A DNA stretch of 64,000 bases. Origin: Tubulanus polymorphus. Lineage: Eukaryota; Animalia; Nemertea. Below the pieces are notes generated by a model. That model saw nothing but the letters and a program-made list of their open reading frames with translations. It was not told the DNA's origin and did not search any database. Both the position numbers and the translations under genes were made by a program. The stretch's first letter is position 1, and each line of letters starts with the position of its first letter. Below are positions 7,811 through 41,570 of this stretch, piece by piece. The stretch spans positions 14,260,001-14,324,000 of the forward strand of contig NC_134025.1 of assembly GCF_964204645.1 (NCBI RefSeq), given 5' to 3'.

Positions 7811-7829
7811 TTCGAGGGACCAAAACTTA

Positions 7830-8028: not shown

Positions 8029-8681
8029 TACGGGTGACTTAAAGAATTTGGTCGCATGGATGGGTACACCTTCCTTATTGGTACGTTACCAGTGTTTGAT
8101 ACCCGGAATAAAAGCTTACCATCAAATAATTCCTCAACTGTGAAGCCGACTCAAGATTTTCAAATTGCTTGGGTAGTAACTGTTGTGTTTTGGATTCCTA
8201 TAGCTATGACAAATGAACAACCAACTCTATAATCGCCATATTATAAACTCGATTTCTATCAAACTCCACCAGAGGGCGCAATGCCCTGGTACAATATATT
8301 TAGCTAACACTACAATAACTTCATTTAGTTACCATTGATAACAACTTACTTTGATTCATGACAACGACCTCATCCTTTTCCGACTCACAATCTTCTTCCT
8401 TGAGGAATACAACTGAGAAATCAGGCAAGAATGTGTAGTACTCATCTGTGATTTTGGTTTCATCTTGGTAAAGATTACCATTACTTATGTTGGCTTTTAC
8501 ACAAGCTGTAATGTCAAATGAAATTAGTGGTATAAGAATTTTTATTTATCACTACGTATCCTGCCAAGATGAAACATCAAGTCCCAGCTTCAAAAGGGGT
8601 GTATGATATTGTTTAACACAATCCCTTGACACTCATTGCCATAAAGTGAAGAAAATTTTGAATTAATTTCGATAATAACTT

Positions 8682-14597: not shown

Positions 14598-14680
14598 CTA
14601 CGGAAGCCCATGATGATGATGGTTTACCTCATACATTGGAACATCTAATATTCTTGGGAAGTGAAGACTACCCTTTCAAG
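14598..14680 (+). CDS. Internal exon of M16 family zinc metallopeptidase (C05D11.1/Sdd3-like), carries HXXEH motif
   Basis: ttttag|CT ACG GAA...TTC AAG|gtaagc; translates (A)TEAHDDDGLPHTLEHLIFLGSEDYPFK. Phase 1 start, phase 0 end. Absent from ORF track. Confidence 0.93.
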
Positions 14681-16157
14681 GTAAGCAAGCAGCTATCGCT
14701 ATGCTACGTGTGCTTGGCTTGTCTTCAGTGATTATAGGTAGCAGCCACTCTTTGGACTCTCAACTATTTTTTTGAAATTACAAATGGTAAAAAAGCAGTT
14801 AACCATCATTTGTTAGTGGCTTTAGGCTGAATGGTTGCTGAGGATATTTAAAGTGAGTTTTTGTGCATCAGTCCTAGAATGTGAGAGCTAATCAAATTGT
14901 CCCTATCTCTGTGTTCAGCACGAGTAGAAGCTCAATGTTTACAAGAAAAGTAACTTTTAGGATCTGAAAGTGGTAATCACTATGCTTTTATTCGCAGAAA
15001 ACCCTATTGCTATTGCTTTGTATTATTACATATTTTTCTCATTCTTGTCACATAATTAGCGGCAACTCCTTATGTGCTGTATATTGCAATGACTTTGCAC
15101 TGAAATAAATTTCAAACACGCATTATCATCTTAAAATCTTCTGACAAAAGTTTTGCCCCAAGTCATAAGCTTGATTAATGATTCGTGTTTATGCAATTCT
15201 AAAAATTAACAAAAATTGCAGTCTTTTCACCGCGAGTGATTTTTAGCATTGGTTGACGTCTATGACGTCATGCCAATGCTAGTAAAATGGATCGAAAATA
15301 GTAGTACGAAAAAATAGCGCCGACTCTTCTCATTTTCATAGTAACTTCAAATTGTCACTCCGTTCACGTAAAACATTAGAAACAGCTGAAAATGACTAAA
15401 AAAAATGTTTCAATTATTCACCACAACATAGCGTCGCCAGATTTCTGATTTATTGGTCCAAAAAGTTATTCGATCGCATTTTTCTCGTTCATTATCTGGT
15501 AGATGAGAGCGGGTAAAACAATCGCGTAGCGATATGTCCGCATTGACATTGGCAGTAAAGAATGGGGAACAGCCTCTTCTGAATAGAAAAACATAAAATT
15601 ATGTACCTCCGGTTTATAAATATCACAGTGTTTGGATATCACTGTTATTCCAACTATCAGTATCCATGGGATTATTTGGGATTAATTCTCAGCGTCAGAA
15701 TAGGTATTTCTAGAGCAGTGGAATGGCAGCCTACTCGTGACTGAAACCTGTATGTGATCGTGCGGGAACGCCTTTACTAAAGTTAAAACCATTTCATGAT
15801 GACACGAAACATCAAACGGTAAACGGTAGGCTACCACCATGATACGATATCACCAATAAAGATAGATCATTTTATTCAATTTTACCAGAGTTGTTTATTG
15901 GAGGAAAGTATCATTGTTAAGAACGCCGAGAACAACCATGTTGTATCATCAATCAGTTGACTGCGCACTCATAAGGCGGTAGGACCTTCTTATACGCTCG
16001 GCAGAGATTCGCTTTGTAATGCGCGCTGGGAAAAATTACCTTTTATTATCTTTTCCATGCGTTAAACAACAGTGATTGAATTTACGTGTTGTTTGTCATA
16101 AATTGCAATATTGCGATGGTTATTTGCCGCTGCTGTAGTTTTTTGGAATTGAATCGA

Positions 16158-16368
16158 GCGGCCTCGGTAGCTCAGTGAGATAAGGCGTGCTGCTGTTGAA
16201 TCCACTATCAATGCTGAGTGACAAGTGGGTTCGAGTCCTGCTGGCTGCGAACAGTGTGCGGGCAACACTTCAAAGACCGTACTGTCGTGAGGTTAAATGA
16301 ACAATCCAATAGGAATAGTCTTGGGAAACCAAGATCCAAACGACGTACGTAAAGCCAAACAAACAATC
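16158..16368 (+). mobile_element. tRNA-derived SINE (or tRNA pseudogene plus tail)
   Basis: A box TAGCTCAGTGAG, B box GGTTCGAGTCC, acceptor-like stem GCGGCC/GGCTGC, then a body ending CGTAAAGCCAAACAAACAA. Confidence 0.65.
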
Positions 16369-19300
16369 ATCGGCCTCAGTGACACCAACGCCGGCATCGC
16401 TCTCTGCAACGTCTTGCATAGGTACATGCATCAGAGCTTGGAGCTCTAAGATCAGAGGGTCTTGCAATTGCATTCAGAAAAATCGTTCTGTTTTTGTTTT
16501 CATTATTCAGTGGGGCCTAACAGTTCATGCGTAAAAATGGGTTTTTGTATCCAAATCTTTATTGATATAAATATCTTGGCTGGGACATGATGGAAAACAT
16601 CAGAATAAACTAGTTTCGTCTTTTTAACAGAATCGTATTAATGAGGTTTAACAGTACAATTAGCCTAGGCTAAATCGTTCGGCAGAAAATAAATTCATTT
16701 TCAGAAATAAAATCGTACTAGACAAATAGACCTTAAAGTCTGTGGTCCTCCCAATCAACATCGTCATAGAAGATTTGCCGGCAGATGTAAAACATTATAA
16801 CCACTTAATACCACAGTATAATCTACAAATGCTTCAAGGCCCATGGGCCTCTTGTTATCCTATAACATGGTGGTTTTTGTCCTGTAACATGTACACGTCA
16901 GACGTGTAAATGTAAATGTGATACATGTCAAGGCACCTTTGATCAAGGAACACGCATCTAATAGGCACATCGGAACCAAACATTGGTTGGATAGGCCCGA
17001 CTATGATTATTGAAGGTAAAATTGCGCATGTTCAACATGTGAATGTAAAAAAAAATCATTAATATACTATAATGTAAATTTCATATTTTCTTAGTGTACA
17101 GTTTGTTGCTATTTGCCTGTGAATTATTAATTAGCCTGTTATTTATCTGTCTGTCTCACCTCATTCATTGTCTTTGTCTCACCATGACTCTGTCCTGCTC
17201 AAACTGTTCTATCTGTTGCACCTATGAAAAACTTGTCATGTCTCGTCACCTGACAACCTTTGTTAGTTTTGCACTCATCAATTATTCTTGTACATATAAT
17301 TATAGCCGAAAATAAAACACTGTAGTAGTATAGTAGTTTAGTAGTCAAAGAATATATGTCTTAGCTGAAAGCAAGCATACATCTCTTGGAGTTCCAAGTT
17401 GGAAATAAACTACGATACGCAATTTAGAGCAACTCTTCTTGTCTCTGAACTTTCCAAACCTGCTTTAGGTTTCAGACGACAATGAACGAAGCCATCGTCT
17501 AAGCGCCGCGATTGGTCTTATAATAGATAGACGAAATATTGGGGCGACCTATTTATTCAGCGTATGAATCTCTGTGAAGTGTCTTAGAGAAAGCCTCCGC
17601 CGCCAAGTGCGCCCGGGCTGAATATTTTTAAATGCACGCTGATTGGCTAAATGAACAAATCTGTTGAAATTATCTAACAAACTTTATTTTATTTTCATAC
17701 ACAGTGTATGTAATAAATGAAATCGTTCAGCATCGTTGTACGGAAGATGTCTTTTTGAGTCATTGGGGAAATCCAAATACCACGTATATTCTTTTGATTA
17801 TGATACTAAGTCGACAGCGTATTCGCGTAAAGGTGACGCAGGGAGTGGAAAGGATTTCAGTCTTAGATTCCTTCGTTGGGGTTCTAGGGACGATGAGTCG
17901 TGTGATTATTACATCTTATCGTAGAACTCATAAGTTCTATGATGTAATGTGTGTTGAGATCGTTTCATTTGACGGATTTTCATAAAAATTTCTGGGAAAA
18001 TTTCTTGGTTCAAGCGGAGATAGGCTTCTAACTACTTGAGGCATGGATCCCCCTCTGAAATTCTGCCGAAGCACCGCGGTGAAAAAAGGTGATTTTTATC
18101 ATTCATATATAATTTTGAAAAAAAGCAATCTTTATTTTGATATTTCCGTGTGTGCGCTGTGCGGGAAATCTATATTTAGAAGCTGCGGTCACATGCTTCA
18201 ATTCATCCAACAAAGCATAGGCTACGCGGTTCCTGAACTTCGCTGAAAAAGCTGAAACACTGAAACGCTGAATCGCTGAAATAAAAACGCTGAAATTTCA
18301 GGGAATTTCCGAAAAACGCCGAAATATCAGGGAATTCCCGAAAAACGCCGAAATCGTGCTAGGTACCGACAATACACGTTTTGAAATAATTTCCGGGCCG
18401 GTGTCCGCTGCCGAGTCTTGAACCGTCTTTTAGTCTCCACCTTCGGTTACAGAGACATGCATGGGCAGTATGTGTGGAGTATACTTCTAGAGGGCCACTT
18501 GTTGGACAAATTGATTCGCTTGGAATCCGGATTTTTAATGCATACAGGCAGCATGATGAGGAAAACCCATTCACAAACCGTGCAAGCCAACTTAAACACT
18601 ATGCTCAATATTCCAAGAATATGGTTTACTTTTGCAAGACGTATCGTTCATGTATAAATCAGGATTATAAGCAACTTTTCTTTTGTCAACACGTTGATGG
18701 GCGACGGACTATAGTATTCTCTGAAGGAGGTAAATTAAATTTGACAGCTAGTTATATAAATGATGCAGCTTTTGGACAAAAGGGATCTAACTAAATTTCT
18801 TTTTAATTCACCGTGGAATGGAATGGATTGACGCCAATGACATGCAGTAGGCCCCTACTTATAGGTCATACTAATTTGCGTCAACCAATTAATCTAAATC
18901 GGGCAAACCATTCAACAACTGTAATTTATTTGCTGTGTTGTGATAATAATAGGTTTTTTTTTTTTTAAATGACATACCAACTGTTAGAAAAATGTACCGA
19001 TTCTTATTTTTAGACTACTACGGTATCTATAAAAGGAGGAGTCATAGACAAAGTTGATTTGCTCAGCTGGACACACTTCTTGTCAAGTACATCATCTCAA
19101 GTATTGGGTGTTTTGTAAGTTTGATTTCAGTATTTATTTACAAAGTGCTGTTCCCTCGGACCTTAGTGCTTTCAAACTAGGCCCACCCCATAGGCTATAT
19201 CTCCAGGGTGTATTAGCCACTATTCTTTTATTTCCTACTTTAAATGCACTATTTTTCTATTTTTAGACTCGGGCTAAGAATGTGCAAATTTGAGATACTG

Positions 19301-20859
19301 AGAAATCAGATGGCACTAGTTAACTTGAACTGCGAAATTTGCAGCAGGATAGCTGAACGACACAATTTTTAAAAACAAAATGGCTATTTGAATGCTATTT
19401 CAGTAATAACTTGATTCAACCAGAGAGAAATAAGTCAATTCGGGATGTACAGTATACCCACTTTACTTCCCCGTTTTCCTGGTACCAAATTTTTTATCTT
19501 AAGCTAAGCAATATTCTAAGGTATGCTAGTGAATTTCATTAGAATATAAAGCAATGGAACCAGAATTCAAGCCCGAGTTAAGCGAACTATTGATTCTGAT
19601 GTAATGTAAGAACTGATTTCTTTTGTGTTCTCTTGTAGAATGTGTTAAGTATTATTTTAAGCTGTTAAATAATATAATTAGACAAACGTCAAATTATTGG
19701 ATCTTTCTTGTTGACTCGTTTAATTTTGTGAGTTTAGAGTTCCAGTCAATCCACAATGTGCAGTGCCTAGCCTTCATCTATTCATCTAGTACTAAAGCCA
19801 AGCCTGTGTATGGGAAAACGTTGTTCGACTCTCATAAGCCAGACAAATCAAAACATGCAATACATTGCAGATAGTAGTCTCCAGCAAGTAGACAGAGAAA
19901 GTAAACCAGGTTTTACCCCGTCCCCTACCCGGCATCTTCACCTGTCAAGGGATTCAAACCCACTACACTAAAGCTGTTCTCCGAACCGCTTGACCTCACG
20001 AGTCGTTACTAGCCGACCAGAATCAGGTCGCCCCAATCACAGCGCTTGTTACAAATGACATTTGGCATCTATGGAATTTCCCGGTAAATGGACCAATCAG
20101 CGAACACGTAGCGAAAACGGAAGTATTGTCGCGTGTTGATATATGACGTCATTCGCTAAAACGCCGGTAATGAAATCGCGCGTCGTGAGGCCAGGGGGCA
20201 GGTGGGAGCGATACTGGTCTCCTGGCAAGCGAGGATGCCTACCCGGGAACGAAAGACACTCCAAGACTCCTTCCTTGTAGAGATTGTAGAAATATGGCAC
20301 CCAATCGTAGTAATGCTGAGTACAGTATACTATGACGGTTGAACCTTTATTCACACCGAAATAGAATCAAAGTAGTCATAAGTTCCATGCTAGCACTTAA
20401 TTTGGGTTATCAGGTTCAGCCTTACTAGCTGTACTTTCATTCAGCTACTACTTTTGTATGAGACTTGGCAATGATAAGTTGGAAGAAATCACCAAACATA
20501 AGAAAAAATATTGAGAATTAATATTACTGTAATTACCTTTTCGAGACTGCTTGCTTAGCCAGCAGTGGTTAGCCTAATACTTTTATTTCAAATTTTTCCG
20601 TGTTTTTTAAATGCCTCTGTTTTCATCCCTGATGCCACAGCCATTCATTTTTTTAGACTTAACTGGCACCAAAATATATCGGGTGGCTAAGGCACGCTCA
20701 GTGCCAATGACTGACGAGTCATTGATAAGCTCACCAATCACTGCTGGCAGGCTGAACAATGGGATACTTATTACGTGTCACATTTTCAATTGTTTTTGGT
20801 TTACCTTCGTCAGCGATATGGAGTTGGCGTTGAGCTAATTCATGTAAAATCGCGGTACG

Positions 20860-22132
20860 TTTAGCCCACTTGGGACTTTAGTCCCAGCGGGCTATTGCGT
20901 TCACTTTTCGTCCGTCGTCTGTGTCCGTCCATCCGTCCGTAGACGGAATCCAGTTATTTTGGGAAGTTTTGAAGACGCTTCAAGGTAACGTCTTGATATT
21001 TGGGTTACACGTGTATCTACCCTAGACACATCTTCAGCCCAAAAACTGGCCCTGTCAGAATCAAGATGGCTGACTGGCAGCCATTGTTGTTCGCCAAAAT
21101 CAGCACTTTTTACACATTTTTAAACTTTTTGAGGGAAATTTTGAAGACGCTTCGATCAATTACCTTGATCTTTCGGGTATATATGAATCCCCCCAGGGCC
21201 CATCAATGAAACAAAAATTGGGTCGGTCGGACTCAAAATGGCCGTCCTATGACCTTTTTAGTTCCCAAAAATGTTAATTTTTGCCCGAATTCTGAGTCCT
21301 ATAGCTTCCTACTGGTTTACCATTTCTCATTGCAATTTGTGATGGGTATTCTTTGGAAAGGGATGTTTTATACCTGAGACAGGTATTTTTCATCAGCCAA
21401 TTATTAGGCAATTGGCGGCCATCTTGGTGTCACCAGTACTCATTCGTAAGTGGGAAAAAGTTTTTCCACATTATATTGATACCTAAGCGTATTTTGCTAC
21501 CACAATCAATTAGAAAGTTGTAGCTCATAACGTGTTCTATCATTGTGGTGAGTTTCAAGGTAATTGGATTTCGTATATGGCCACCAGGGGGCGTTGAATA
21601 ATACAATATCTTAGCATTTCTTTATTATATTCGTACCTATGCATATTCTGTAACCACAATCAATAAGAAAGTTGTAGCTCATGACATCATCTATGATTGT
21701 TGCGAGTTTTAAGGACATTAGTTTTTCTATATGGTCACCAGGGGGCGTTGAATAGTAGAATAACTTAGTATTTCCTTATTATATTGGTACCTAGGCATAT
21801 TTTGTTACCATGATCAATTGCAAAGTTGTAGTTCATGACATGTTCTATGATTGTGGTGAGTTTCGAGGTCATTGGGTTTTGAATATAGTCACCAGGGGGC
21901 GTTGAATAGTAGAATGACTTAGTATATCCATATTAAATTGGTAACGAGGCATATTTGTTATCACAATCAATTTCAAAATCGTAGCTGCTGACATGTTCTA
22001 TGATTTTGGTGAGTTTCAAGGTCGTTGGTTTTTGTAAATGGTCACCAGGGGGCGTTGAATATTGAAATTGTTAGATTGTTGAGCATTTGAAACCATTTCC
22101 CAAGTGGGCATGGTGTCCCTGGACCCCTAGTT
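20860..22132 (+). mobile_element. HINE-like family A, full-length copy
   Basis: Near-identical to 1031-2301 from TTAGCCCACTTGGG to GGACCCCTAGTT. Confidence 0.85.
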
Positions 22133-22529
22133 TATGTGAGCATTTGTTTCATTGGTTCTCGGCTTAAACGACGTATAATCGATGCGATTGAAGACATTGC
22201 GAACCTCCGTCGATGACATGGTCAACTTCGTTAAAATTCTACGAAAAACTGTTTTTGCGGGAAAATTCTTAGCTCTTGCGTATAAAATTGCAATGACCTC
22301 GATTGGGAGGTGTGGTCTCTACGTGCGAATGTGATTGGCTGTTTTTGGAATTTACTGGGAATTCCGGCGCTACTAAAATGATTATGGAAAAGCCATAGAA
22401 TGGCGAACTTTTCATTAGACTAGGTGCCGTATATGTGCGAATTTCAAATGCTCATTGCTGGTGATAATGTAATTATTATCCGCCATAGGTATTGTTTCAT
22501 TTTAATATCCGGTGATTGATTTGATTGAC

Positions 22530-23200
22530 ATTGAAGTGTAAGCCAACATTTACTTACACAAGGCCTCCATGTGCGCCCGGAAATCATTAGATTAGACTGT
22601 TGCACAAACAAACACACGCGCGTACAGTAAACACTACTATAGTGATACTGTAACGCTGCTTGCTGGCGCATTTGACATTTAATCAGCAGAAGATGAGCGC
22701 TGTGTTTTCTGTTTGATAGAATGTGTAATAAATTGTAATTTCTTGTGACCTAAAAATACTTAGCAGCAAACTATAGGTATAGGTCGAGGTCTGAATATTG
22801 TAGTGGTAAATTCCAGGATTTAAAAGATCTAATACGCCGATTTCTTACTGCACCGGTATTTTAGCTTCCGTGGCCATACATTCAGCCACCTTCAGATATG
22901 TGACATCATATGTATTTTATTTGAATGTTTTTTCATATTATGAAAAATATTTCTTTGAAAATATAAAATAGTTTCCATGCCGCGCCTACCTGTGCCCTAC
23001 GAAATTTTTGGTGTGGACCGTAAACAAATGTATATCTTTGGTCTTCTGACTATAAAATAATCCTTTAAGAAAATTAAAATAGAATATTTAAACTTGTAGA
23101 ACTTTGAAGTCACGAATTAAAAAGATTTTTCAAGCAATGCCCTTACCCCAAACAACCTCTAGCTTTCAAGGTAAACCACTTTGCCCATGGGCAATTTATT
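22530..23200. repeat. Dispersed repeat, second copy at about 54500-54586 plus 56110-56645
   Basis: Shared TCAGCAGAAGATGAGCG...AAAATACTTAGCAGCAAACTATAGGTAT...GGTAAACCAC..TTTGCCCAT. Confidence 0.8.
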
Positions 23201-23399
23201 AAGAAAGGGACCATGGATGTGGCTACGATTTACGAAGTATGAATTATCCCATGGAAATAAAAGGGAGTAACGAAGGAAAAATCCTTACCTTTCATTTTTA
23301 TGCGAATTTACTGAAGACGAATTAAGCGAGGTTCTCAGCAGTACTGCTCATTATATAGTAATATTATATCAATAAATATATATATATTAAACCAAATTA

Positions 23400-23985
23400 G
23401 ATCCCGATGTTTTGAAAAATTATAGGCCTGGATCGAATCTTCCTTTTGCTTCAAAGCTTATTGAAAGATTTGCAGCTGAGCAGCTACACCAGCACTTATC
23501 TATAGTTGTATTCATTATACAATAAAGGTCAGTCTGCTTACAGAGCATTTCACAGCGCAGATACAGCTCTTTTACGTGTAACTAGCGACATTCTACAAGC
23601 CCTCGACAAGAGGGATCATGCTGTTATGGTACTTTTGGCCCTTAGCGCTGCTTTTGATACCATTAATCATGATATCTTAGTAAGTCATCGTGAATACCAT
23701 TTCAGAGTCAAAGGAACCATGTAAGAATGTTAGAATAGGTTTAAATCCTATCTTAAAAACCGAAAACAATAAGTTATTTTAGATGGTTAACTAGGCACTA
23801 TATCAGATCTTTTATGTGGTGTCCCGCAAGGCTCAGTCTTGGGACCAATCTTACACGGCTCCACTTGCAGATGTTATTGTAAAGCATGGTCTGGATCATA
23901 TGATGTTTGCTGACGATACACAATTATACATCGTTTGTAAATAGCCCAATTCTGTTTTATGTAAGATTGAATCCTGTATTGCAGT
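23400..23985 (+). pseudogene. L2/CR1-clade LINE RT fragment
   Basis: DPDVLKNYRP.SNLPFASKLIE, QSAYRAFHS.DTALLRV, LSAAFDTINHDIL, GVPQGSVLGP, FADDTQLY, with stops. Confidence 0.9.
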
Positions 23986-24639
23986 CATTTTATTGACGTT
24001 CGCATTGGCAATCCGTTTTGGAGCCTGATTATTAGCATTACTTCGTTAACTGCGGCACAGGGATGAGCGTTCGCGTTGAAAACATTCGTGTACATAGGCA
24101 ATATAGCCTTATAATCTCGTGTTAACTGCGTCTATGTATCAGTTATAGAGTACACGCGCCTCAATGATTTGTCTGAGTGAAGATGTTAGCTACTTAAAGC
24201 AATCCTATCATGATATTATTAAAAACCATGTCAGATAAACCTTGTTGCGTCAGTAACCGGCACTAGCCTCAAAATTGAAGAACTTGGGAGCTTTTGTCCT
24301 GATTGGTCCGTATATGATAATGAAAAATCTCTGATGAAACCCAGGCTCTCACCAAGTGTCACTAGTTTTATTTTTTTTACGTCATTCAAGGGATGTATCA
24401 AAATTATGAACATTTGTTCAGACAAAAGGCCCATAATCAATTTTTCGAAGATTTCATCCTCGTTAAAAGTCAGTTATTAAAAGTTCACACTGACCTAAAT
24501 TGATTTCTTTTTATATATTTTTTTCTTGTTTAAATTTCATGAAATGAATTTTTGCATCCCGGTAGCCTACGTGACAGATTACCTGACGGATTTTTTACTC
24601 CACACCAGTTTGGCAAGCCACTTGACCATTGGTCCTTTA

Positions 24640-25890
24640 ATTTTAGTTCGATGGCCTACACATTAGGAATATCATCCCAAATCGTATCAGTATACTCAAA
24701 GATAGGCCTCAAATATGATTTGTCGATGATTTCTAATTATTTATGATCAAATCTATATTTCAATTGTCTGACCATATTTAATCTAGAGAGATATTTTCAT
24801 CACATGAGCCTTCTGAATTGTAAATGATACCCAGGTGCTTATGGCTTTTGACTTCAATTTGAACATTATAAAAAAGAAGAAAAAGCATGGTTGGCTGTCG
24901 ACGTCGACTGATGATAATATATTTTGTTTTAGTAGCATTAAAATCAACTAGCCATTTAGATGACCTCGGGTTGATTCTATCTAAATCGTTTTGAATAACT
25001 GGAAGTACAGAAGGCAGATTTCGGGATGATTCGATCATACAAGTGTCATCAGCAAAAAGTCTAAGAGGGGTAACAGTTATCCTGGATATGTCATTGAAAA
25101 ATAGCGAAAATAGTAATGGACCTAATTTTAAGCCTTGGGGTACTCCCGAGTAAATATGCGCCCATTTTGCGTGGGACCCTGCTATTACTACTCGCTGCTT
25201 GCGATCAGATGAATAATTTGAAATCCTTCTAAGAATGATTCCGTCGAAACCATGCTAGGTTTTAAGTTTAAAGATTAGCCCTGTATGCCATACACGGTCG
25301 AAAGCTTTGGCAATATAAAAATTGCTAGATATTCTTCACGAGAGTCAAGTGATTCCTGGATCTTATGATATAGCTCGAGCAATTGAGTTGCTGTTGAATT
25401 GCCAGGAAGAAAGCCTGACTGATTTGGAGAAATCATTTAAAATATGATTGAAAGTGAAGGTGCATATAATCTTTTCAAATACTTTATTTACACAGCTCAA
25501 AATTGATATCGCTCTATAATTACTAGGAGAGCTTCGATCGCCTTTTTTTGAAGATGGATGTGACATTGGCAAGTTTCCATTTACTCGGGAATGTACCCGT
25601 TTCAAAGACGTATTAAAGATGTAACGTAAATATGGCACCAGGATATATACTGCTAGCTTTAGAAACTGTGGACTAATTTGATCATAGCCTATGGCTTTAG
25701 TTATGTCTAGTGATATAACAGCCTTTTAATGTCGTTAAGTGTTATAGTATAATCAGTGAGTAATCTATGATTGGTTGGTTCATCAGGTAATTGAACATTG
25801 TTGTTGTTAGTCATAATACTAGCAAAGTAGTCATTTAGGAGGACATTTGCCTTTTCATAGTCATCATAAACAAGTGTATCATAAACAAAA
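24640..25890 (-). pseudogene. CR1-like LINE ORF2 fragment
   Basis: EKANVLLNDYFAS, NYRAISILSCVNKVFEK, AKAFDRVW, GVPQGLKLGPLLF, LFADDTC, WLVDFNATKTK, HKHLGI; multiple frameshifts. Confidence 0.9.
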
Positions 25891-27630
25891 AGATGGCCTG
25901 TGGTCCCAAAATCGACTAAACCGCCCCCTAGTGACTCCCTTATCAGGGGTTCAGTGCCCAGAACCATTGAGAGGTCGTTTTCATCTCAGGCGGATAAAAT
26001 GAGATGGTCAAAACTGTGGTAGGCTTAGTTTAAGGAAAACCGATTTGAGCGAAATTGACTAAGTCAAGAATCCGTGAAAAACGACTAAGTCCAGTGAAAA
26101 CTGAAAGCCAAATCTTATTACCAAGTACACATTTTAAAAGATGACTATGTATGTGAAATAACAAAGAACTTACAGGTTCTTCAGCTACTGCCTCATCTCC
26201 AGGCGCTTTATCAGACGCTGTATTGTCTTTCCTTTTAGCGCTTATAAATCGAAAAACTTTGGACGACTGAAATAGCAAACAAGACAATTCGTTAGATAGA
26301 ATATTATAATTTGCGGCCAATTTCGTGTACTGGATCAACTTACAATCGACTGACTGTCCCCAGTCCCAAAGGATTTCATAACTTCTCTAGCCACGCTTTG
26401 AGTTTGTTTGACTTTTCCACCAATGACGTAATACTTATCGGCTGTATGCCTTCTGTGGGCCATTAGTTGTGCCAGGGTATCTGCGCTATCCGGATTTGCT
26501 GTTCTCGTTAGGGTGGTAGCCGATTTTCGGATGAGTTTGTTTGTTACAGGTTTTGATGTACCAGTAGATTGCTTCCAGAATCGTTGCAGGACACTTTAAG
26601 AGAACAGATTGCAGTTAATATTGAGACATTAAACTGAGACATACTAACTTCAAAAATACTCACCCGCTCATTTAATTTAATTTATTCCCTTGGAAATTAA
26701 CCCAAAGGGGCTTCTGGGGTCGTACGTTTCGGACGACTAGAGGCAGGATTTTCTCCACGTATAAGTCCAAAAGTCTCCCGAGATTTCCGGTCAAGTACAC
26801 AATAACCCCCCCATAAGTTGAGACGGTCTTATGGCCTCGTTCAGCGTCACCGGTCACCTGCATAAATTATAAAGTAATTATGGCACTTGAAACTTGAATA
26901 TATTTAGTATTACTTACCGTTACATAATACAGCTCCTCATCCTCATCTTCCCCCTCTACAGGTCGAATACGTGATATGTCGTCAACAGTAAGGTGATTTA
27001 CGACACCAGCACGTTGTGCATTTTGACTGCAGATAAGAGTTACCGTATGAATTCTGACGGCAGTAAACTGGGACATTGTTACTGTTTTGACGTTACCAGC
27101 TAGGAACTTTACTACATGCCTAGCTATGTGGACCCAAGCACTTGTTGCCAGTCATCTTAAGTTATGACATTCTCTGAAATGATTGAAATATATTTGTTAT
27201 AATTAGTATTACATACCGGCATCTTCGATATTTTTCCTTGCCGTCTGGACTTCTTTAGTTCGATTAAGCAACTTTCTCCAGTGTGAGAGCAGCTTCTCTA
27301 AAAGTTGCAGGTCATTTGTTGTTGAAAGGACTCCAAGGGTCTCTGAAAAAGGCGCATCAGTTAAAGAAAAAGTGATAAGCCAGTACCTAATTTACACTGT
27401 ACTTACATCTGCGAGAAATGTCAAGAATTCCGACATTGTATTCATATAGACTGTCGAAGTTGAAGCCTTGCAGCCATCTTCTACGAGTGCGAAAAAAAAT
27501 CTGGACGAATCCAGATACCAGTCAGTCGATGTTAGCGCACACCGGAGTTGTTGTTATTTTTGGTCGATAGCCCTTTGGCGTCGTTTTTCTCGAAGTTTTC
27601 ATAGTTGGATCTTCCGTTATAGCGGTTTTC

Positions 27631-27880
27631 TGGGGAGTTGTTCCTTCTGGCTGTGTTTTTTGGGCAGTTGTTTCTTCTGGTTGTGTTTTTTGGGGAGTTG
27701 TTTCTTCTGGCTGTTTTTTGGGGAGTTGTTTCTTCTGGTTGTGTTTTTGGGGGAGTTGTTTCTTCTGGCTGTGTTTTTTGGAGAGTTGTTTCTTCTGGTT
27801 GTGTTTTTGGGGGAGTTGTTTCTTCTGGTTGTGTTTTTGGGGGAGTTGTTTCTTCTGGCTGTGTTTTTTGGGGAGTTGTT
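27631..27880 (-). repeat. 30-bp coding minisatellite (PEETTPPKTQ, about 8 copies) in the YR gene
   Basis: GGGGAGTTGTTTCTTCTGGTTGTGTTTTT-like units; one unit carries a frameshifting deletion. Confidence 0.9.
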
Positions 27881-28974
27881 GTTATCGTGTTTTTCTGTTC
27901 ATCAATAATTTCTGTATCTACATCGGCGATCTCCATTTCATCGTCGTCATCGAGAACTGGTTCTAGGGAGTGTAATTATATTCATTAGACCATATCATTA
28001 TTATAATAGCTAGCTGAAGAACACATGAACTGACCGAATGTACATCTCTTTTCGTGGCGGGCCGCACGCACGAACATTACACCGCAAAAACGGCTGGTGC
28101 GGGATTTCGGTTTTCGTGCCCCTTTGTCGTCTTTGCGTTTAGACATGTACGTCGGCATAATTCGTCTGAAAAGTAAAATCAATTACATCGAGTTTGGGTT
28201 GGTTTGTCTAGGCTCGGGTTCCTGAGGCCAACATCTCAATTGTATGAATACTAACAGCCAATTGCGAGCACGGTATGGCGACCATAGATGTACTTTTCTC
28301 AAGTGCCTGCTCATTTGTTAAACTCGATCAGAGCACCCCATGACCGGACAGTCACGAGACTCGCGCGATTTTTTTACAGTTTCAAAGTCTGGCAGCAGTG
28401 GCTGTAGTACCAGCGGTGGCGGTGGTGCCAGAGGTGGCAGTGGTGCCAGTGGTGCCAGTGGTTGCAGTGGTCGGGTACGTTTCTCACTTTTTTTTCTCTC
28501 GGCTCGGTACTGGAGTCGGATAGTGGTGGCATTTGTTGTCTATGTCTCTTCTGAACGACCTTTTTATTCTTTCGCACAGGAGAACTTGTCTCTTCTCTCG
28601 ACCGGGGATTGGAGTCCGACGTATCTGAGGAATGAGAATCATCTGTTATACCTATTGGATAAAATGAAAATTAAACATAAGACAATAGGCTGCAGAAACT
28701 TCAGTCCGGCAGTACGTACAAATCATGTCCTCTTCCTCTTTCTTTTTAAACGAACAATGTCACTAAGTCCATCATCAAATGATTCTGCATGGAGCAAAGA
28801 AAAGAATCAAACATCATTATATTCATGATGTGAAATGTGGTTTCTCTGTTGAATTCAAGTGATAAAAAAGTGCATTACTTTGTGCTTCGTCCTCTTTTTT
28901 TTCTGATTCATCGACTTGTTCTGATTCATCCACTGCGATTAAAGTGGTATCATTAAAGCGGGTATTCAATATTT

Positions 28975-29430
28975 GCTCTGATTCATCGACTTGTTCCGAT
29001 ATATCCACTTTTGGTTCTGATTCAACGACTTTTGGTTCTGGTTTCGACGACTTTTGGTTCTGATTCGACGACTTTTGGTTCTGATTCGACGACTCTTTGT
29101 TCTGGAACGTCCACTTTTGGTTCTGGTTCGAGGACTTTTGGTTCTGATTCGACGACTTTTTGTTCTGGAACGTCCACTTTTGGTTCTAATTCGACGACTT
29201 TTGGTTCTGATTCGACGACTTTTTGTTCCGATATGTCCACTTTTGGTTTTGATTCATCGATTCTTTTACATAACACAATAGGCTGCATAAACTTCATTCC
29301 TTTACAAAGTGATAATGATAATCTTCCTGATTCATCCACTTTCCATTCATCCACTTTGTCGGAGTCCGTAGATTCGTTGGAGTCCATAGATTCGTTGGAG
29401 TCCGTAGATTCGTCAGAGTCCATTGATTCG
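28975..29430 (-). repeat. 21-bp (PKVVESE) and 18-bp (ESMDSN) coding repeats at the YR gene N-terminus
   Basis: ORF 29022-29483 translation. Confidence 0.85.
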
Positions 29431-29478
29431 CTTGTGTAGTAATCCATTATAACTAAGAAATAGGAAATTTTATAACCA

Positions 29479-29929
29479 GGCAAATATGTCTATTTTAACG
29501 ATTTTTGGTCACCTGAAAAAAATATTTTTAGGGTATCTAGCGCGTTGAAATTACCAGGGTACATGCATAAGTATCTTATCTACACTAAACAATTTTGACC
29601 TAGGGTTTAAGTCTCTCTAGAAAAGCTGCGGTCTGCTCCGGGTGCCAAAAACTGGCAAATATGTCTATTTTAACAATTTTCGGGCACCTGAAAAAAATAT
29701 TTCTAGGGTACCTCCTAGCGCGTTGAAATTACCAGGGTACATGCATAAGTATCTTATCTATACTAAACAATTTTGACCTAGGGTCTAAGTTTCTCTAGAA
29801 AAGCTGCGGCCTGCTCCGGGTGCCAAAAACTGGCAAATATGTCTATTTTGAGTATTATGTCTAGAAAATATTTCTAGGGTACATAGCGCGTTGAAATTAC
29901 CAGGGTACATGCATAAATATCTTATCTAT
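29479..29929. repeat. Tandem array, units of 175 and 178 bp, about 2.5 copies
   Basis: GGCAAATATGTCTATTTT at 29479, 29654 and 29832. Confidence 0.9.
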
Positions 29930-30251
29930 CGAAAAACAAAGTAAACCGAAAAAGATTTTTTGTTTAATAAAATTGATTAATTTGTATTCATCGTTACCAA
30001 CTAAAACGTCTATTTTTTTAACGTCGGAGCACGAATGAATGTCTCTAAACTAACTAATAAGATGCTTGAATAATTGTACTTGCCGTTTATGTCCTTTAGA
30101 TAATCCAAATTGCGTTTATAATCCTTTAAATTGAGCAGAAACTTTACGTAGCAGACGGATTTATATCACAACGAGCAGACACCTATTTGCTAATTACTGC
30201 AAGGAGTCATACTGAAAATGTTAAAATGAGCGTCTAATATACGCCAAAATA

Positions 30252-31200
30252 CACTAAGTTGAGACCTGAAAACCGACCCCCTTCTAACATCTCCTACAAC
30301 CTTAATACTGGCCCCAGGGCCCTGAAACTTTTCAGGGACCTAGAAAAGGGTCTTTTACAAATACCCAAACATTAATAAATGACCCTAGGCCCTTGGTTGT
30401 GGAGCTAGAAACTTTATCACGCGGCCATACCTGGATCTGTGACGGCCACGCGACCACATTCTCGGGACCAACTCGACCCTAAATATAGGCCCCTAGGGCT
30501 CTGAAACTTCTTGAGTCTTTAGAAGGGGCCCTGTAGATGATACAGAACTATTAAAACCCTGTGTGCGTTGGTCCTTTGGGTCTGGGTAGGCCGTGCCCCT
30601 AACCGCGAAAATCAGACGTGAAAATGCACTAAGTTGAGACCTGAAAAACGACCGCCCTTCTAACATCTCCTACGACCTTAATAGTGGCCCTAGGGCTCTG
30701 AAACATTTTAGGGACCTAGAGGAGGGTCTCCCACAAATACGCAAACATCAAAAAATGACCCTAGGCCTATGGTTGCGGAGCTAGAAATTTTATCGCGCGG
30801 CCATACCTGGGGTCTGAGACGTCTGATCGACCACACTCTCGGGACCAGCTCGAACCTTGATATTGGCCCTAAGGCTCTAAAACTTCTCGGGTATTTAGAA
30901 GGGGGTCGTCTAGCTCATACAGAACAATTTAAACCCTGCGCGCGGGGGCCCGTTGGGTCTGGGCAGGCCATGCCCAAATCTGCGACGCGAAAATGCACTA
31001 AGTTGAGACCTGAAAAATGACCCACCTTCTAACCTTAATAGTGGCCCTAGGGCTATGAAACTTCTCAGGGACCTAGGGGAGGGTCTCTTACAAATACGCA
31101 AACATCAAAAAATGACCCTAGGCCTGTGGTTGCGGAGCTAGAAATTTTATCGTGCGGCCGTACCAGGGGTCTAAAACGGCCGCACGACAACTTTCTGGGG
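30252..31200. repeat. Tandem array, units of 375 and 369 bp (each made of two related halves), about 2.5 copies
   Basis: CACTAAGTTGAGACCTGAAAA at 30252, 30627 and 30996; GGCCC(C)TAGGGCTCTGAAACTT-like motif twice per unit. Confidence 0.9.
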
Positions 31201-33561
31201 ACTCGCTGGGGTGGTCGCGCGTCCGTCAGAGACCCCCGGTAAGTCCGTGCACCAAATGGTAGAATGCTGCTAGGTTGCCCTGCCCAAAACGCTAAAATCG
31301 ATGAAATAGATGTAAGTCCAGACCAGAAAAGAGATGAAAGTCCAGACCTGAAACATACCCCCTTAAAACTTGTTGTAATTCCCTTAAGGATGCTCGTAGT
31401 GGCGTGAGATAGGAGATCTCAGGCAGATAGAAGAGACCCTTAGGCAAGTGTACAACCTTTGAAAAGGCATTGTCAATGAGTCAGATAACTCGTGGTGCCC
31501 CCTGCAAAAATTGACAAAAAAGTGCAACAAACGGAGACATTTTTTTACTTAGAAACTTTAAACATTAAAATAAAATTCCATAAACAGTATTTCCTTAAAG
31601 ACGATAATGGCCTGATCATTTAATGTAAAATTCGTGTATATTCGTGCATAGGGGGCGCTTTGTTAGTCGATTTAGTGTAAAAAAATAGCCGAAAAACGAC
31701 AAATTTGAGCGACCATATTTGAATGTCTCCCATTACTTTATTAGGAATGCTAGGGCCTTGACACTTGGTAGGCAGATAAATTAGGGTCTTGTGTAACTGG
31801 ACAAACTCGAAAAACGAATGCGCAACTTCCTGTTTGGTAGCAGGGCCCCCTAGACTTTAAAGTGAACTAACTGAAAAAATGGACTTTGAAAAAGCTTTTA
31901 ACCATCGGATGACTTAAGAACATGAAAAAGAGTCGAATTACGTTTAGAAAACGAGTTAATCTCAAAACCGGAAGTAGTTATGAGGGTTTGAATATTTGAC
32001 AAAGCATTGATGGCTTTTGGTACCCTAGTCATTTTCATAAAATTGCGATAATTACTTAACAAATAGGGTTAGACCAGATTAGTTTTGTGCAACGTTTTAA
32101 CGATGTTATAAGCTTTAATTTGAAACCAAGTTTTAAAGATAATTCCAAAAAATAAAAAAGTTACAAACGTTTTTGTGATTCAAAATTCGACCCCAGGCTG
32201 AAATTATGCCCTAAAATTCATTTCTACTTCCAATAACCCCTGGGGTTAGTTAGATAGAAGAATCATAAATGTTGATTCATTTGATTCTAACGCAAAAGCG
32301 CCACCTTTTAGAAAAATGTTGGCCTCTGGAAGCTCCGTACCTCACTTGCCACAACGTAAAACTCGAATAACTTTTGATCCGGTAGAGATATTTTGATTTC
32401 GTTTTTTTTCAAAAGACGTATCTCCATCTAAGAGCCACTTTTATTCTCGGTTTTTGACATTCTGTAGAGAAATAAAAAATTATTTTGAGTTGAACATGTA
32501 ACTCAGATATCGGGAAATTCGAGTGAAATCCGTAGTTGACTGCATATGACGGGCCATAACGTGCGCCAGAAATCCAAACCAAATTTTTAGGGTTCCCCTA
32601 GGTAATTGTTGTGTGCTCCACAATGCAACTCAAACTTTCACCCACAAATTTTGGCGTAAATCCCCCCTCAAGAACGACCCGTGGCTTTTGGAACCCCTTT
32701 ATATAAAAGTGAACATAACTCGAAAAGTATTAGAGATAATCCATTTCTGTAAACGGGACACTGTAGAACGCCCCCTTACTCATTTTAAACGTGATAGGAA
32801 CGTTATAACCCCAGTAGTTTTCGAGTTATGGCCAATTATGTCGACGGTCTGAGAGGCCAAAACGCGTACCGCAGGGTTAGCCAGGGCAACTTATTTCCCA
32901 CCCGAATTTCACTCTATATATTCACGTGGGCCACTTTTAAGCCATTCTAAAGCCATTCCGACTAGTTTCGCTAACCCCCTACATTATTAGGGCTAGGATT
33001 AGGGTAAGGTGAGGCTATATTTAGTTAAAATATTCGACCGGTTTCCAACGAGCTCGGTGGTCTAGTGGTATTATTCTGCACTAGTAATTAACTGGCCCGG
33101 GTTAGAGTCTCGCTCTATCCGCCCTATTTTTCCTAACTCGATTCTCCACACTTGCCTTGATTTTTCTAAGTCGCGCACCCTAGTGCGCATGCGCAACGTG
33201 AATTAGCCAATCAGAATGAAACGTCGTAAATATAGCTAGTGTCGTCCGTTTACGGCATCGTAAAAATAGCCTGAGCATTTTTTGTTTCTGAGTGCAAATT
33301 CCTCACTGAACACATTTATTAGACCAGCCATAGGCTGAGCCTATTACTATACAAATGGAGCGAATTTAAATGACATGGTTTCAAGAGCAAAGGCTCTTTG
33401 AATGTGCAACTGGGCATATATTCATACAGATCATTCATTAAAGCATTATCCATTCTCCAAACTCTACGTAGCTGAATTTTGAAAGAGGGCCTCGTTAAAA
33501 TTTATATGAGCTTTTTCGCGAATATCTGATCGCAAAAATATCGGTTTTGAAAAGCCAATCA

Positions 33562-35034
<1,473 letters not shown>

Positions 35035-35996
35035 TTAAAGTCAATAAGACCAAGGGAAAAGATTTATTTGAGGTATTTGTTCCTGCCAGATCCAGTCGCT
35101 GTCTGTGCTACTTTTGTATTCTACGATTGTATTGTGTAAATTATTAGATATTGACTCTGAGCTGGGAGTGTATTTTGAAAAATTTAACCCACAGAATGCA
35201 TCATCATTTGCCATTATATGAAAAGCTGACAGGCTGGCCATAGTGCCCCTTGGGGCTCTCGTTTTAGATCATGCGTAATGAACGCCAATTTAGCGGTTAA
35301 TACAAATCATTACATCTACCTGCGCATAAATACACCATCAATGCTGAGCCTGTTAGCGTAAGTACGCGTGTAGGTACAGCCATACACACGTTAATGCCGA
35401 CACTGGCTTGCATTTCAAAAGTTAAGAACAAAATTTTAGAAATATTTGTGATCTGATTTACACCAAATAAACCTTTAAAGTAAGGTATTTAGCATCGGAT
35501 ATTGTGCTGAAAATTCCAGATTGATACACTGCATAGTTTTTCAAGTAAGCACATTGTTTGTGTCAACCAATACGTTGATAGACAGGCAGACTCAGCTGCG
35601 CGCCTCATTTTATTGATGATGTCAGATGTAAACAGTAACATTACCACGTGCGTAATGCAAACGAAAAACAAATTGAATTTTTTAAAACAAATTTCTCTAA
35701 TGGAATATCAATTTCTTTTCATAATTTGCCTTTCTTTTATGTAGTTTATAATCTATACATCGGACTTTGCTTCTTTGAACCTCAGGACTTTGAAGTCCTT
35801 TTGTTATCATTTTTGGATCAGCACAAATCAAATTTTGTTTTAGTGCATCATTATATTGTTGTGGGTTATATGTAATGTATATTTCATTGATATATCATTT
35901 GTAATGCGTACATGAAAATTAGATTTTGATTGAGGGTATTTTTTGCGTTCTTAATCTAAAGCAAATAAGGTGATTTATTTCTGTTTTCCTAACCAG

Positions 35997-36155
35997 GGTG
36001 TGCTTGACTTGTTGGCCAATCGATGTCTAGCTTCTGGAACCAATGCCTGGACTGACACAGATCATACATGTTACACTATGACGAATGCTGGTAGTGAAGG
36101 TTTTCTGCAATTAATGCCAGTTTACTTAGACCATATTCTCTACCCTACCCTGACG
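35997..36155 (+). CDS. Next exon of the M16 peptidase
   Basis: ttttcctaaccag|GGT...ACG|gtgagt; 159 bp, GVLDLLANRCLASGTNAWTDTDHTCYTMTNAGSEGFLQLMPVYLDHILYPTLT (NAxT motif of M16). Joins the previous exon in frame. Confidence 0.93.

Positions 36156-36718: not shown

Positions 36719-36807
<89 letters not shown>
36719..36807. repeat. (TA)n microsatellite, continued at 37390-37410
   Basis: Read directly. Confidence 0.98.
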
Positions 36808-39433: not shown

Positions 39434-41522
39434 TCAATGATTCAAATGAGTATATGGAACCATATTGCTACCCTCATTGTGAAGTACTAACAGATCACTG
39501 TATGTCCTAAAATGCCTATAACATTCAGTACAGTCCCTGCATTCCTCTCTTGATCTATTTGTATCGATGGATGGCCAAGGAAAGAAGTCTAGAGTTGGTC
39601 CAGTTTCAAACCATCTGTAATTCGTTATTTTGTCACCAATCCTTTTCATACATAGGGGATGAGGACAGCCAGCCTGAAAACAGCAGACTAGACCAAACAC
39701 GTATTTTACTTCATGATAGACTTCATGCGTCGACTGAACTTTCAATACATCATCACAATGTTTCAGCCACTTGGTTACCCTGTCGTCTTCAGAGAATGAT
39801 GTTGCAAAATTTGCCCTTCCTTGCTCAGTTAACTTCAGATATTGGAGCATGATCGGCCTTCTCTCCATGAAATCGTTATTCTTTCGGGCCTTGTAGAGTT
39901 TTATAGTGTTGTCTTTAAATAGAGTACCATTACACCGAGATATATATATATATATCTATAGCCGCATTCAGAATTGAACAGACTTTTTCCTCGTCCAATG
40001 CTCAAAACTCATCTTTATTCGAGCCAAGTGGGTTGGAGGGTATGAATAGATTAGCGTGGGCTCTGCTGAGTTGGCCATTCAGGTGCTCCACTTAATTGAG
40101 GTAGCTGCCTCCGCTATATCGTGTCGTAACAAATGTGGCCAGTTTTCCCATCTCTACGTGCCATTCAGTCCATATAAATTGCTGTTCATTGAAATCAGGA
40201 TTCTCGTCTCCACCACCATCAACACGTATTGAATCGATGAGGCGCATTTGCCCATCTGGTTTGAAAAACACATGTTTAAGCTCTGGCATTTCAGTCAACA
40301 TTCTAATGTCTTGGGCATGCTGAGAGGGACATTTCACAGTCAGACGATTCGCCTTCACAATACCAGCATAATCTTCTTTTGTGGTCTTTGAGCCTGTGAA
40401 ATGGTAACTTGTTACCTGGAGTTGTGCAGTATCTTTAGTTGTAAAGTCAGTTCTTGTGGCGATGTCTTCACTTCCTTTAACCATTAATGTTTTGAATTTG
40501 TTGGCACATGTTAACGTATTTAACCTGAAACCAGCAGCATCGTCTCTATTTATGTACATTATGTTACTGTTGTTCGTTTCTTGAAGACTATTCAATCCTC
40601 TATACAAAGCGTTGGACCATCGTTCATCTATGTTTATCTTAACATCAATCATCAACTCCTTTATATCTCTTAGACGATGGGAATCGTTTGTTTCGTGGCA
40701 TGCAAAGTTGAACTAAAGTGCCATGGCTAATCGTTTCTCCAATTTCTTTACTTATGGCTTCCCTCAATCTCGACATGAACTTGAGGAGCGCCACTTATCA
40801 GCACCAACCCCGGCATTCCTAACAATTCGCTCCAACTCTTTGCCTATATCAGGGTGTCTTTGTAAAATGACTTTAGTAGTTGTATTCACACGACGCTGCA
40901 TGCGCCTCTCCTCAGCTATTTGTCTAATTGTCTTATCAACCTTTTCTTTTTCTGCTTCAATTTTTCTCTTTTCTTCCTTATAACAGTTAGAAATTGCGGA
41001 TCCTGACCATTACCAATTTCAGTCAGATCTTCTTGGTTATCCTCCTCAGATGATGATGAATCAATTGGTAATGGTTCACCTTCTGAATCGCTAGAATCAC
41101 TATCCAATATTGTGCAATCACTCTTTTCACAATCACTGTCAGAACGTTTCTCTGCAGCCTGTTCTACCAGTCCATGATTTTAGTAGTAACTTATCCTGAG
41201 TCTCAGTCAGTTCACTGTATGCCGAGTATATCCCTTTCATTTTCTCTATATTATCAGCAACTTTCTTGTGCAGTTCTGAAGTATTCAAACCATAAATCTT
41301 CCTTGCTTGACAAGCTGATATGTTTGCAGTTGCAGCATAAGTGAGTAACTGCCGATCTTTCTCACTTGATGCAAGACAATGCAGAAGCTTCAACTTTTCT
41401 TTAGACAACAATCCTATCGCAGACCCAGACTCTGTTACCATACCAATCTTCCTTCCCAACTCAATCATACTAGCATAACATACACCTGGCATCCGCTGAA
41501 TAACATATAACTGTCTCTCCAA
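39434..41522 (-). pseudogene. Disrupted DDE transposase, Zator-like
   Basis: Collinear fragments with INRDDAAGFRL (D), RVDGGGDENP (D) and TTRYSGGSYLN*VEHLNG (E), plus a Cys-rich C-terminus (CCFQAGCPHPLC, CRDCTECYRHF). Confidence 0.7.
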
Positions 41523-41570
41523 CTCTAATCACATTTTTCTCAACCGGTCCCATTTCGAGTACGACCGTTG

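What the first reader, a model, noticed from the sequence alone, without database searches (positions are those of the whole stretch)
26059..29483. Hidden multi-intron tyrosine recombinase gene with zinc fingers, antisense inside a 21 kb host intron
Seen: splicing seven short GT-AG introns (43, 60, 64, 70, 73, 77 and 90 bp) joins unrelated-looking ORF scraps into one protein. It runs acidic/repeat N-terminus, C2H2 finger (CPVMGC...HLRKVH), a second finger-like motif, a PEETTPPKTQ stalk, then an ordered YR catalytic set: R (27011-13), K (26828-30), KxxR (R at 26527-29), H (26455-57) and YY (26428-33). The exon with the last R/H/Y is absent from the ORF track. Most junctions restore the frame exactly; the 27343 acceptor needs a 2-nt shift (CAGAG). 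Known: Cryptons are YR-encoding DNA transposons lacking RT; introns are familiar in fungal Cryptons. Inference: a CryptonV-like animal element, probably an undescribed family, whose tiny introns contrast with the host's 16-21 kb introns. This copy is dead (several stops and frameshifts).
Basis: partly seen in the sequence, partly recalled or inferred. Interest (0 to 1): 0.85.

Follow-up and report, generated by a model that had tools for sequence, protein, structure and literature searches.

The report
Dead intron-split zinc-finger recombinase gene
A broken gene split by short introns, encoding a zinc-finger DNA cut-and-rejoin enzyme (tyrosine recombinase), lies backwards inside a 21-kb intron of a host gene; it is likely the relic of a Crypton-type jumping gene from a widespread but little-described animal lineage, although no element ends or sister copies were found.

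Summary
All seven listed GT-AG introns and all named residues are at the stated places, and two or three further introns are likely. A profile of relatives that contains no window sequence scores the spliced, break-marked protein at E 2e-45, and splicing the four core introns raises the score. Relatives (a crinoid, an eel, 80 metagenome loci) share two zinc fingers, a SAM-like domain and a recombinase core; one folds like XerA/Cre. The copy is dead: at least three stops and several frameshifts, seen again in sequencing contigs. Corrections: the conserved Tyr is the second of YY, the K of 'KxxR' is not conserved, and the last two exons lack homology support. 'Crypton' fits only broadly: no termini and no second copy at 80% identity or more were found, DUF3504/NDC10/GCR1_C/DUF3435 are absent, and CryptonV could not be tested. 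Relatives look like transposons (several families per assembly, no fixed neighbours) but show no introns in the core. Rivals: a dead host gene-family member, or a relative of nimavirus integrases (same published architecture). This scan noted similar broken zinc-finger YR genes in other genomes. Verdict: new, dead member of a known kind; moderate interest.

The parts
28879..29447 (-). Probable first exon: ATG at 29447-29445, acidic 18/21/42/63-nt repeats (ESxDSN, VVESEPK), a frameshift near 29040; no homology support
28785..28878 (-).
28652..28719 (-). Weak candidate 68-nt intron; N-terminal structure unresolved
28256..28651 (-). Exon with Ser-rich and PLAP-repeat linker and C2H2-like finger 1 (CPVMGC...HLRKVH); stop TAA at 28320-28318 inside the finger; frameshift near 28490
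   Evidence: (finger 28.6 bits, 0 of 300 shuffles)
28166..28255 (-). 90-nt intron GTTAGT...TTTCAG
28035..28165 (-). Exon with basic linker and degenerate finger 2 (first Cys absent)
27963..28034 (-).
27407..27962 (-). Exon: acidic patch, 30-nt PEETTPPKTQ repeat stalk (27625-27880) with frameshifts, start of the SAM-like core-binding domain
27341..27406 (-). 64-nt intron (acceptor 27343), or 66 nt with the tandem AG at 27341, which keeps the frame
27217..27340 (-). Exon: core-binding domain helices
   Evidence: both CB exons: 0 of 300 shuffles
27174..27216 (-). 43-nt intron
26918..27173 (-). Exon: stop TAA 27159-27157, frameshift near 27126-27129, catalytic Arg 27011-13 (NAQRAGV)
26858..26917 (-). 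60-nt intron; coincides with the gap against the crinoid relative
26664..26857 (-). Exon: catalytic Lys 26828-30 (HKT); stop TAA 26674-26672
26594..26663 (-). 70-nt intron
26344..26593 (-). Exon: Arg 26527-29, His 26455-57, conserved Tyr 26428-30
26267..26343 (-). 77-nt intron (consensus and frame only)
26174..26266 (-). Tail exon, no homology support
26101..26173 (-). 73-nt intron (consensus and frame only)
26059..26100 (-). Last exon, TAG at 26061-26059; the relatives' C-terminal helical domains are not detected
29479..31207 (.). 178-nt tandem array (29479-29929) and about 376-nt repeats (30240-31207) directly upstream; possibly element DNA, not shown
24778..25890 (-). Degraded non-LTR (LINE) RT fragment beginning about 170 nt after the stop; neighbour, likely a separate insertion
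14681..35996 (+). Host intron, 21,316 nt, of an M16-peptidase-like gene
   Evidence: (PF00675 E 0.006, under the curated cut-off)

Best explanation
The window holds a dead, intron-split gene for a zinc-finger tyrosine recombinase, likely the transposase of an old Crypton-type (YR-only) DNA transposon that came to lie antisense in a host intron. Shown: the exon-intron anatomy, the domain order (two fingers, low-complexity stalk, SAM-like core-binding domain, catalytic domain with R, K, R, H, Y), the breaks, and membership of a family with intact members elsewhere. Inferred from established YR chemistry and the Crypton model (Goodwin model as described in PMC9977147 passages): the spliced protein would have bound short sites at the element's ends, cut with its Tyr through a 3'-phosphotyrosine link, excised the element and re-inserted it by recombination with a short matching target, the fingers likely adding DNA or chromatin binding. 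The copy then decayed, and a LINE fragment landed behind it. The introns are likely lineage-specific gains (or retained ancestral ones), since the relatives I could read show none in the core; they are not copies of one another.
For: YR identity: spliced model against a 46-sequence family profile 141 bits, E 2e-45 for one comparison; relatives hit XerC/XerD models in 18 of 19 and PF00589 weakly in 10 of 23; the AlphaFold model of relative P0029 (mean pLDDT 70.7) matches XerA, XerH, lambda Int and Cre (45 matches at E<=0.001). Catalytic columns among 46 relatives: R 46, K 44, R 41, H 42, Y 40, the rest mostly gaps. Transposon-like behaviour of relatives: 34 of 80 loci carry one frame of 600 aa or more; no neighbour is conserved across families, the largest shared class being LINE-like RT scraps at varying places in 8 of 80; 26 non-redundant neighbouring frames of 170 aa or more gave RT/RNase H in 4 and no viral hallmark; six assemblies each hold 3-4 loci, and in one of them the three loci (L004, L019=L007, L022) sit on different branches. 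Named relatives are animal: crinoid LOC117114584 and two eel proteins; Atlas look-alikes are mostly eukaryote clusters without Pfam, commonest Mollusca and Chordata. Setting: an intron that also holds LINE, piggyBac-like and high-copy repeats. Breaks are real: a 3.2-kb contig of run X1 matches 24551-27749 with no difference, and X3 matches 27961-28331 with none.
Against: No termini or short terminal direct repeats were identified, here or in relatives. No second copy: in X1 the depth over 26411-26811 equals that of the one contig (37.6), so no contig at 80% identity or more adds to it; the adjacent LINE bin 25208-25608 is equally unique, so this may only show age. The window protein is 21-30% identical to all relatives and sits on a long, unplaced branch (quick tree, 45 rows, 2 left out), so relatives' behaviour is borrowed evidence. 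Eight to ten introns are also what a host gene would have. No empty site was seen.
Confidence: 0.7

Rival explanations
1. A dead member of a host gene family derived from such a transposon (domesticated, intron-gaining, birth-and-death), nested in the peptidase intron and no longer mobile long before it died.
For: Many spliceosomal introns against none seen in the cores of 80 related loci; single copy at 80% identity or more; no ends; the crinoid relative is annotated as a gene with seven isoforms; Crypton domestication is documented (PMC3212892 abstract). An earlier scan note describes tandem clusters of such intron-bearing genes in another genome (unchecked).
Against: All five family catalytic residues were kept until death, whereas domesticated DUF3504 genes lack most of them (PMC3212892 abstract). 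Intronised Crypton copies are common (PMC13465315 passages). The intron-less bias among relatives is partly built in, because they were found by contiguous peptide patterns and prokaryote-style gene calls.
Confidence: 0.16
2. A stranded integrase of, or shared with, an endogenous large DNA virus such as the nimaviruses, whose YRs integrate the viral genome into repeats.
For: [quoted passage not shown] That is the same architecture and residue count as here.
Against: None of 60 other frames of 60 aa or more in the host intron resembles a viral gene; no relative in viral contigs (0 of 9 and 0 of 42 candidates); no viral hallmark beside relatives; fold matches among viral proteins are generic YRs at 9-17% identity and none of the named ones is nimaviral. 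No target repeat flanks the gene; the one TTAGGG-like run (32987) lies at the edge of a high-copy repeat. Sequence kinship with nimaviral YRs was not testable.
Confidence: 0.1
3. The YR gene and the downstream RT fragment are one YR retroelement.
For: An RT fragment lies on the same strand about 170 nt behind the stop; RT scraps occur near 8 of 80 relatives.
Against: The fragment reads as a LINE-type RT (my reading of its motifs) with no RNase H; in relatives RT scraps sit on either side at varying distance; the window's own DIRS element near 41.6-45.5 kb is not hit by the family profile.
Confidence: 0.03

Closest known systems
Crypton DNA transposons in the broad sense (Kojima and Jurka 2011, PMC3212892; definition in PMC13465315)
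   Same: Eukaryotic YR gene without its own RT or DDE transposase; no terminal inverted repeats seen; introns occur in Crypton copies.
   Different: No DUF3504 (CryptonA), NDC10_II/GCR1_C (CryptonF) in 23 relatives. CryptonA and I have no C-terminal domain (section 8), whereas relatives here have two C-terminal helical domains and N-terminal fingers. Mobility and ends not shown.
CryptonV (Kapitonov and Jurka 2012, Repbase Reports; seen only as a citation and one sentence in PMC8869645)
   Same: Animal YR DNA transposon group outside CryptonA/F/I/S; a plausible home for this family.
   Different: No sequence or domain map was reachable. Microsatellite targeting, reported for some families, is not seen: no microsatellite lies within 7 kb of the gene.
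Nimavirus tyrosine recombinases (Kawato et al. 2023, PMC10871703)
   Same: C2H2 + SAM-like + YR, five key residues, some multi-exon.
   Different: No viral genes or target repeats around this gene; sequence relation untested.
Uncharacterised LOC117114584 of Anneissia japonica (P0005/P0021) and Synaphobranchus kaupii 'Tyr recombinase domain-containing protein' (P0047)
   Same: Same family by profile; fingers, SAM-like domain and catalytic motifs in the same order.
   Different: Under 30% identity; intron positions of those genes not seen.
XerA/XerC/XerD/XerH, Cre, lambda integrase
   Same: Fold of the core-binding and catalytic domains; R, K, R, H, Y positions.
   Different: The His of HxxR is T/N in the family; added fingers and stalk; eukaryotic gene structure.

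Membership tests
Tyrosine recombinase superfamily | Catalytic domain with ordered R, K, (H)xxR, H/W, Y | tested here: met
   R, K, R, H, Y present and conserved in 40-46 of 46 relatives; HxxR His absent family-wide
Tyrosine recombinase superfamily | Core-binding plus catalytic fold | tested here: met
   Through relatives: XerC/D models 18 of 19, Foldseek to XerA/Cre; window aligns over both domains. The window protein itself was not folded
Crypton (broad sense) | YR gene without linked RT or DDE transposase | tested here: met
   No consistent partner in 80 loci; the adjacent LINE and piggyBac-like pieces appear separate
Crypton (broad sense) | Defined ends with 4-6 bp direct repeats, or defined ends shared by copies | tested here: inconclusive
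   No ends found in the window or in relatives; animal CryptonA/I also lack terminal repeats
Crypton (broad sense) | Dispersed copies or empty sites in the host genome | tested here: inconclusive
   No copy at 80% identity or more in run X1 contigs; more diverged copies untested because no genome is held
CryptonA | DUF3504-type YR, no C-terminal domain | tested here: not met
   0 of 23 relatives hit DUF3504 at E<=0.05; C-terminal domains present
CryptonF | GCR1_C domain behind the YR | tested here: not met
   0 of 23 relatives hit GCR1_C or NDC10_II
Starship | DUF3435 captain with cargo | tested here: not met
   0 of 23 hit DUF3435
CryptonV | YR sequence in the CryptonV clade | not testable with these tools
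   No Repbase/Dfam sequences; library mentions are one-liners
CryptonV | Insertion into microsatellites (some families) | tested here: inconclusive
   Nearest microsatellite found is 36719-36807, but the ends are unknown and not all families target microsatellites
Nimavirus YR / endogenous nimavirus | C2H2 + SAM-like + YR architecture | tested here: met
   against the text
Nimavirus YR / endogenous nimavirus | Embedded in a viral genome with nimaviral core genes | tested here: not met
DIRS/Ngaro YR retrotransposon | Linked RT/RNase H and split or inverted terminal repeats | tested here: not met

The most novel reading that the evidence does not exclude
This gene belongs to an unnamed, animal-wide superfamily of zinc-finger YR transposons, distinct from CryptonA/F/I/S, with intact intron-less members and heavily intronised lineages such as this one, and that superfamily is the source of the integrases that let nimaviruses live as endogenous elements.
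Probability: 0.15. Interest if true: 0.68.

Novelty: new member of a known kind. Interest (0 to 1): 0.38.

Why it matters
The copy itself is dead and does nothing now. Its value is as a handle on a family of animal tyrosine recombinases that has no Pfam model, is missed by standard searches, and has many intact members. These could be tested as active Crypton-type transposases or as new site-specific recombinases. The contrast between 8-10 tiny introns here and none seen in the cores of relatives makes intron gain in a mobile gene testable, and the shared architecture with nimavirus integrases raises a checkable transposon-to-virus link. If the family is simply Repbase's CryptonV or CryptonH, only the intron-rich member is new.

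Tried and rejected
No whole genome is held, so copies were judged only from run contigs. No RNA holder was listed, so splicing is untested by transcripts; the second-sample contigs over 27961-28331 contain the introns unspliced, as DNA would. A closer look at read contigs over the gene alone was not obtained, which leaves minor variants and loose ends there unseen. Pfam on ten exon frames and on the read-through: nothing relevant. PDB sequence search: nothing for the read-through, XerA at E 0.077 for the family. Word search with the last exon: 0 of 59 candidates; with P0021: only itself among 4441. Of three hits in the exhaustive search, P0003 was a chance repeat protein and was dropped. Single-sequence fold of P0021 failed (pLDDT 37) and was not searched. 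Alignment A1 of exon fragments was poor and unused; one search was in the wrong frame. Introner origin rejected: best intron pair matched by 15 of 500 shuffles among 45 pairs. A sharp 3' boundary shared by L007/L032 has no matching 5' partner, so it was not taken as an element end. Weak profile hits at 56.1-56.7 kb (E 0.3-8) are out of order and were judged chance. The careful tree did not finish; the quick tree leaves the window unplaced. Eight literature searches gave no paper describing this family, judged from listings; Repbase Reports and the Kojima 2020 review are not held, and the figures and alignments of PMC10871703 could not be seen (supplement text searched only), so 'undescribed' is not established.
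Full report
Observation. All seven introns are there: 90 nt (28255-28166), 64 (27406-27343), 43 (27216-27174), 60 (26917-26858), 70 (26663-26594), 77 (26343-26267) and 73 (26173-26101), with GT-AG ends and higher A+T than the exons. A 72-nt intron (28034-27963) also restores the frame from finger 2 into the stalk, and 94- and 68-nt candidates lie in the N-terminal part. The five named residues translate as stated. The host is a + strand gene whose first visible exon weakly hits Peptidase_M16 (E 0.006, under the cut-off); its exons at 14598-14680, 35997-36155 and 52188 onward give introns of 21,316 and about 16,030 nt. That the host is an animal is inferred from these introns, the transposon content and the named relatives.

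Is it more than chance? Splice-like pairs alone are weak evidence (7 of 47 minus-strand hits in this 2-kb bin), and Pfam sees nothing in the exons. An exhaustive search with the read-through 27535-26666 gave three marginal hits, two of them real: a metagenome fragment and a crinoid protein with two fingers and the same motifs. A three-sequence profile then gave 23 proteins. A profile of 19 of these, with no window sequence in it, ranks four exons of this gene first among 2830 window segments and in the right order; two of the four (finger 1 and the last catalytic exon) were not in the seeds. Splicing the 60- and 70-nt introns lifts the score from 45.6 to 105.3 bits, splicing the 64/66- and 43-nt introns from 106-114 to 122.6, and the whole break-marked model scores 141 bits against a 46-sequence profile. 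The two tail exons have no such support (31 of 300 shuffles).

What the protein is. The relatives are tyrosine recombinases: 18 of 19 hit XerC/XerD models, 10 of 23 hit PF00589 below its cut-off, and a model of P0029 built on the alignment (pLDDT 70.7) matches XerA, XerH, lambda Int and Cre. The family order is finger, finger, low-complexity linker, SAM-like core-binding domain, catalytic domain, two helical C-terminal domains. The C-terminal domains are not detected in the window. Identity to any relative is 21-30%, and the quick tree leaves the window on a long, unplaced branch (45 rows, two short ones left out).

It is dead. Stops lie at 28320, 27159 and 26674 in homology-supported frames, with a frameshift near 27126-27129 and further shifts in the repeats. 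A contig of run X1 matches 24551-27749 with no difference, and one of X3, a second sample of the same study, matches 27961-28331 with none. X1 may be the window's source, so it argues against assembly error but is not an independent individual.

Is it a transposon? For: among 80 metagenome loci (best 80 of 101 confirmed) 34 hold a single frame of 600 aa or more, and no neighbour is shared across families; 26 long neighbouring frames give only RT/RNase H in 4 and scattered weak hits; six assemblies hold 3-4 loci each, in one case from three branches. Viral contigs gave nothing. Against: I found no ends here or in relatives, and in X1 no second contig at 80% identity or more covers the catalytic exon, although a neighbouring LINE bin is just as unique. 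Five of 80 loci have insertions in the gene and none has both splice ends; that sample is biased toward unsplit genes. The window's introns are not related to each other.

Mechanism. [quoted passage not shown] The chemistry is inferred from conserved residues and fold; mobility is inferred from relatives. Rivals: a domesticated, intron-gaining host gene that later died (0.16), or kinship with the integrases of endogenous nimaviruses (0.10), which are described with a C2H2 domain, a SAM-like domain, five of seven key residues and sometimes several exons (PMC10871703, passages and methods section). Nothing viral lies among 60 other frames of the host intron.

Known families. It works like a Crypton. 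It is not CryptonA, CryptonF or a Starship by domain content (PMC3212892 abstract, Results part 1 of 3 and section 8; PMC13465315 passages). CryptonV could not be tested: the library has only single mentions (PMC8869645, PMC5753468, PMC13465017, passages), and the Repbase report and Kojima's review are not held. That CryptonH exists as a Repbase group is recalled, not from a call. Eight searches found no description of this family (listings only), which does not prove it undescribed. Notes of this scan report similar broken zinc-finger YR genes in other animal genomes, one also beside minisatellites (unchecked), and none for this genome or this sequence.

Verdict. A careful and largely correct reading of a real but dead gene: new member of a known kind, interest 0.38. 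The most novel reading not excluded, an unnamed animal YR superfamily that supplied nimavirus integrases, has probability about 0.15 and would deserve about 0.68.

Noticed in passing
window 41633-45481 (+): DIRS-type retrotransposon remains (RT, RNase H, methyltransferase-like and YR-like frames by my reading; RNase H by Pfam); its YR is not hit by the family profile.
   Followed up: partly
window 33562-35107 (-): piggyBac-like transposase fragments (DDE_Tnp_1_7) with a 27/54-nt Gly/Arg-rich repeat at 34315-34441.
   Followed up: partly
window 39434-41528 (-): Three long frames (173, 206, 129 aa) without Pfam hit, with a DGGGDENP motif; probably a further unclassified DNA transposon gene.
   Followed up: no
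window 4318-8038 and 57270-61169 (-): Two BEL/Pao-like LTR retrotransposon remains (by motif reading).
   Followed up: no
window 1627-2230, 21459-22061, 48338-48940: The same 154-nt unit in arrays of about four copies at three places: a dispersed high-copy repeat.
   Followed up: no
window 29268-29300 and 28675-28707 (-): A 33-nt duplication, 91% identical, encoding GMKFMQPIVLC / GLKFLQPIVLC; resembles a PxVxL-type motif (recalled). Whether the second copy is coding is unresolved.
   Followed up: partly
window 32987-33010 (+): Only TTAGGG-like run found in the window, at the edge between single-copy DNA and a high-copy repeat; an imperfect 32-nt inverted repeat lies at 32707-32837.
   Followed up: partly
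L071:5602-10431 and L059:337-4860: 1610-aa and 1508-aa frames without any Pfam hit near YR relatives; likely other transposon genes.
   Followed up: no
P0045 (eel protein, 1642 aa): Gene model that fuses a fragment of this YR family to granin and short-chain dehydrogenase parts; probably an annotation artefact.
   Followed up: no
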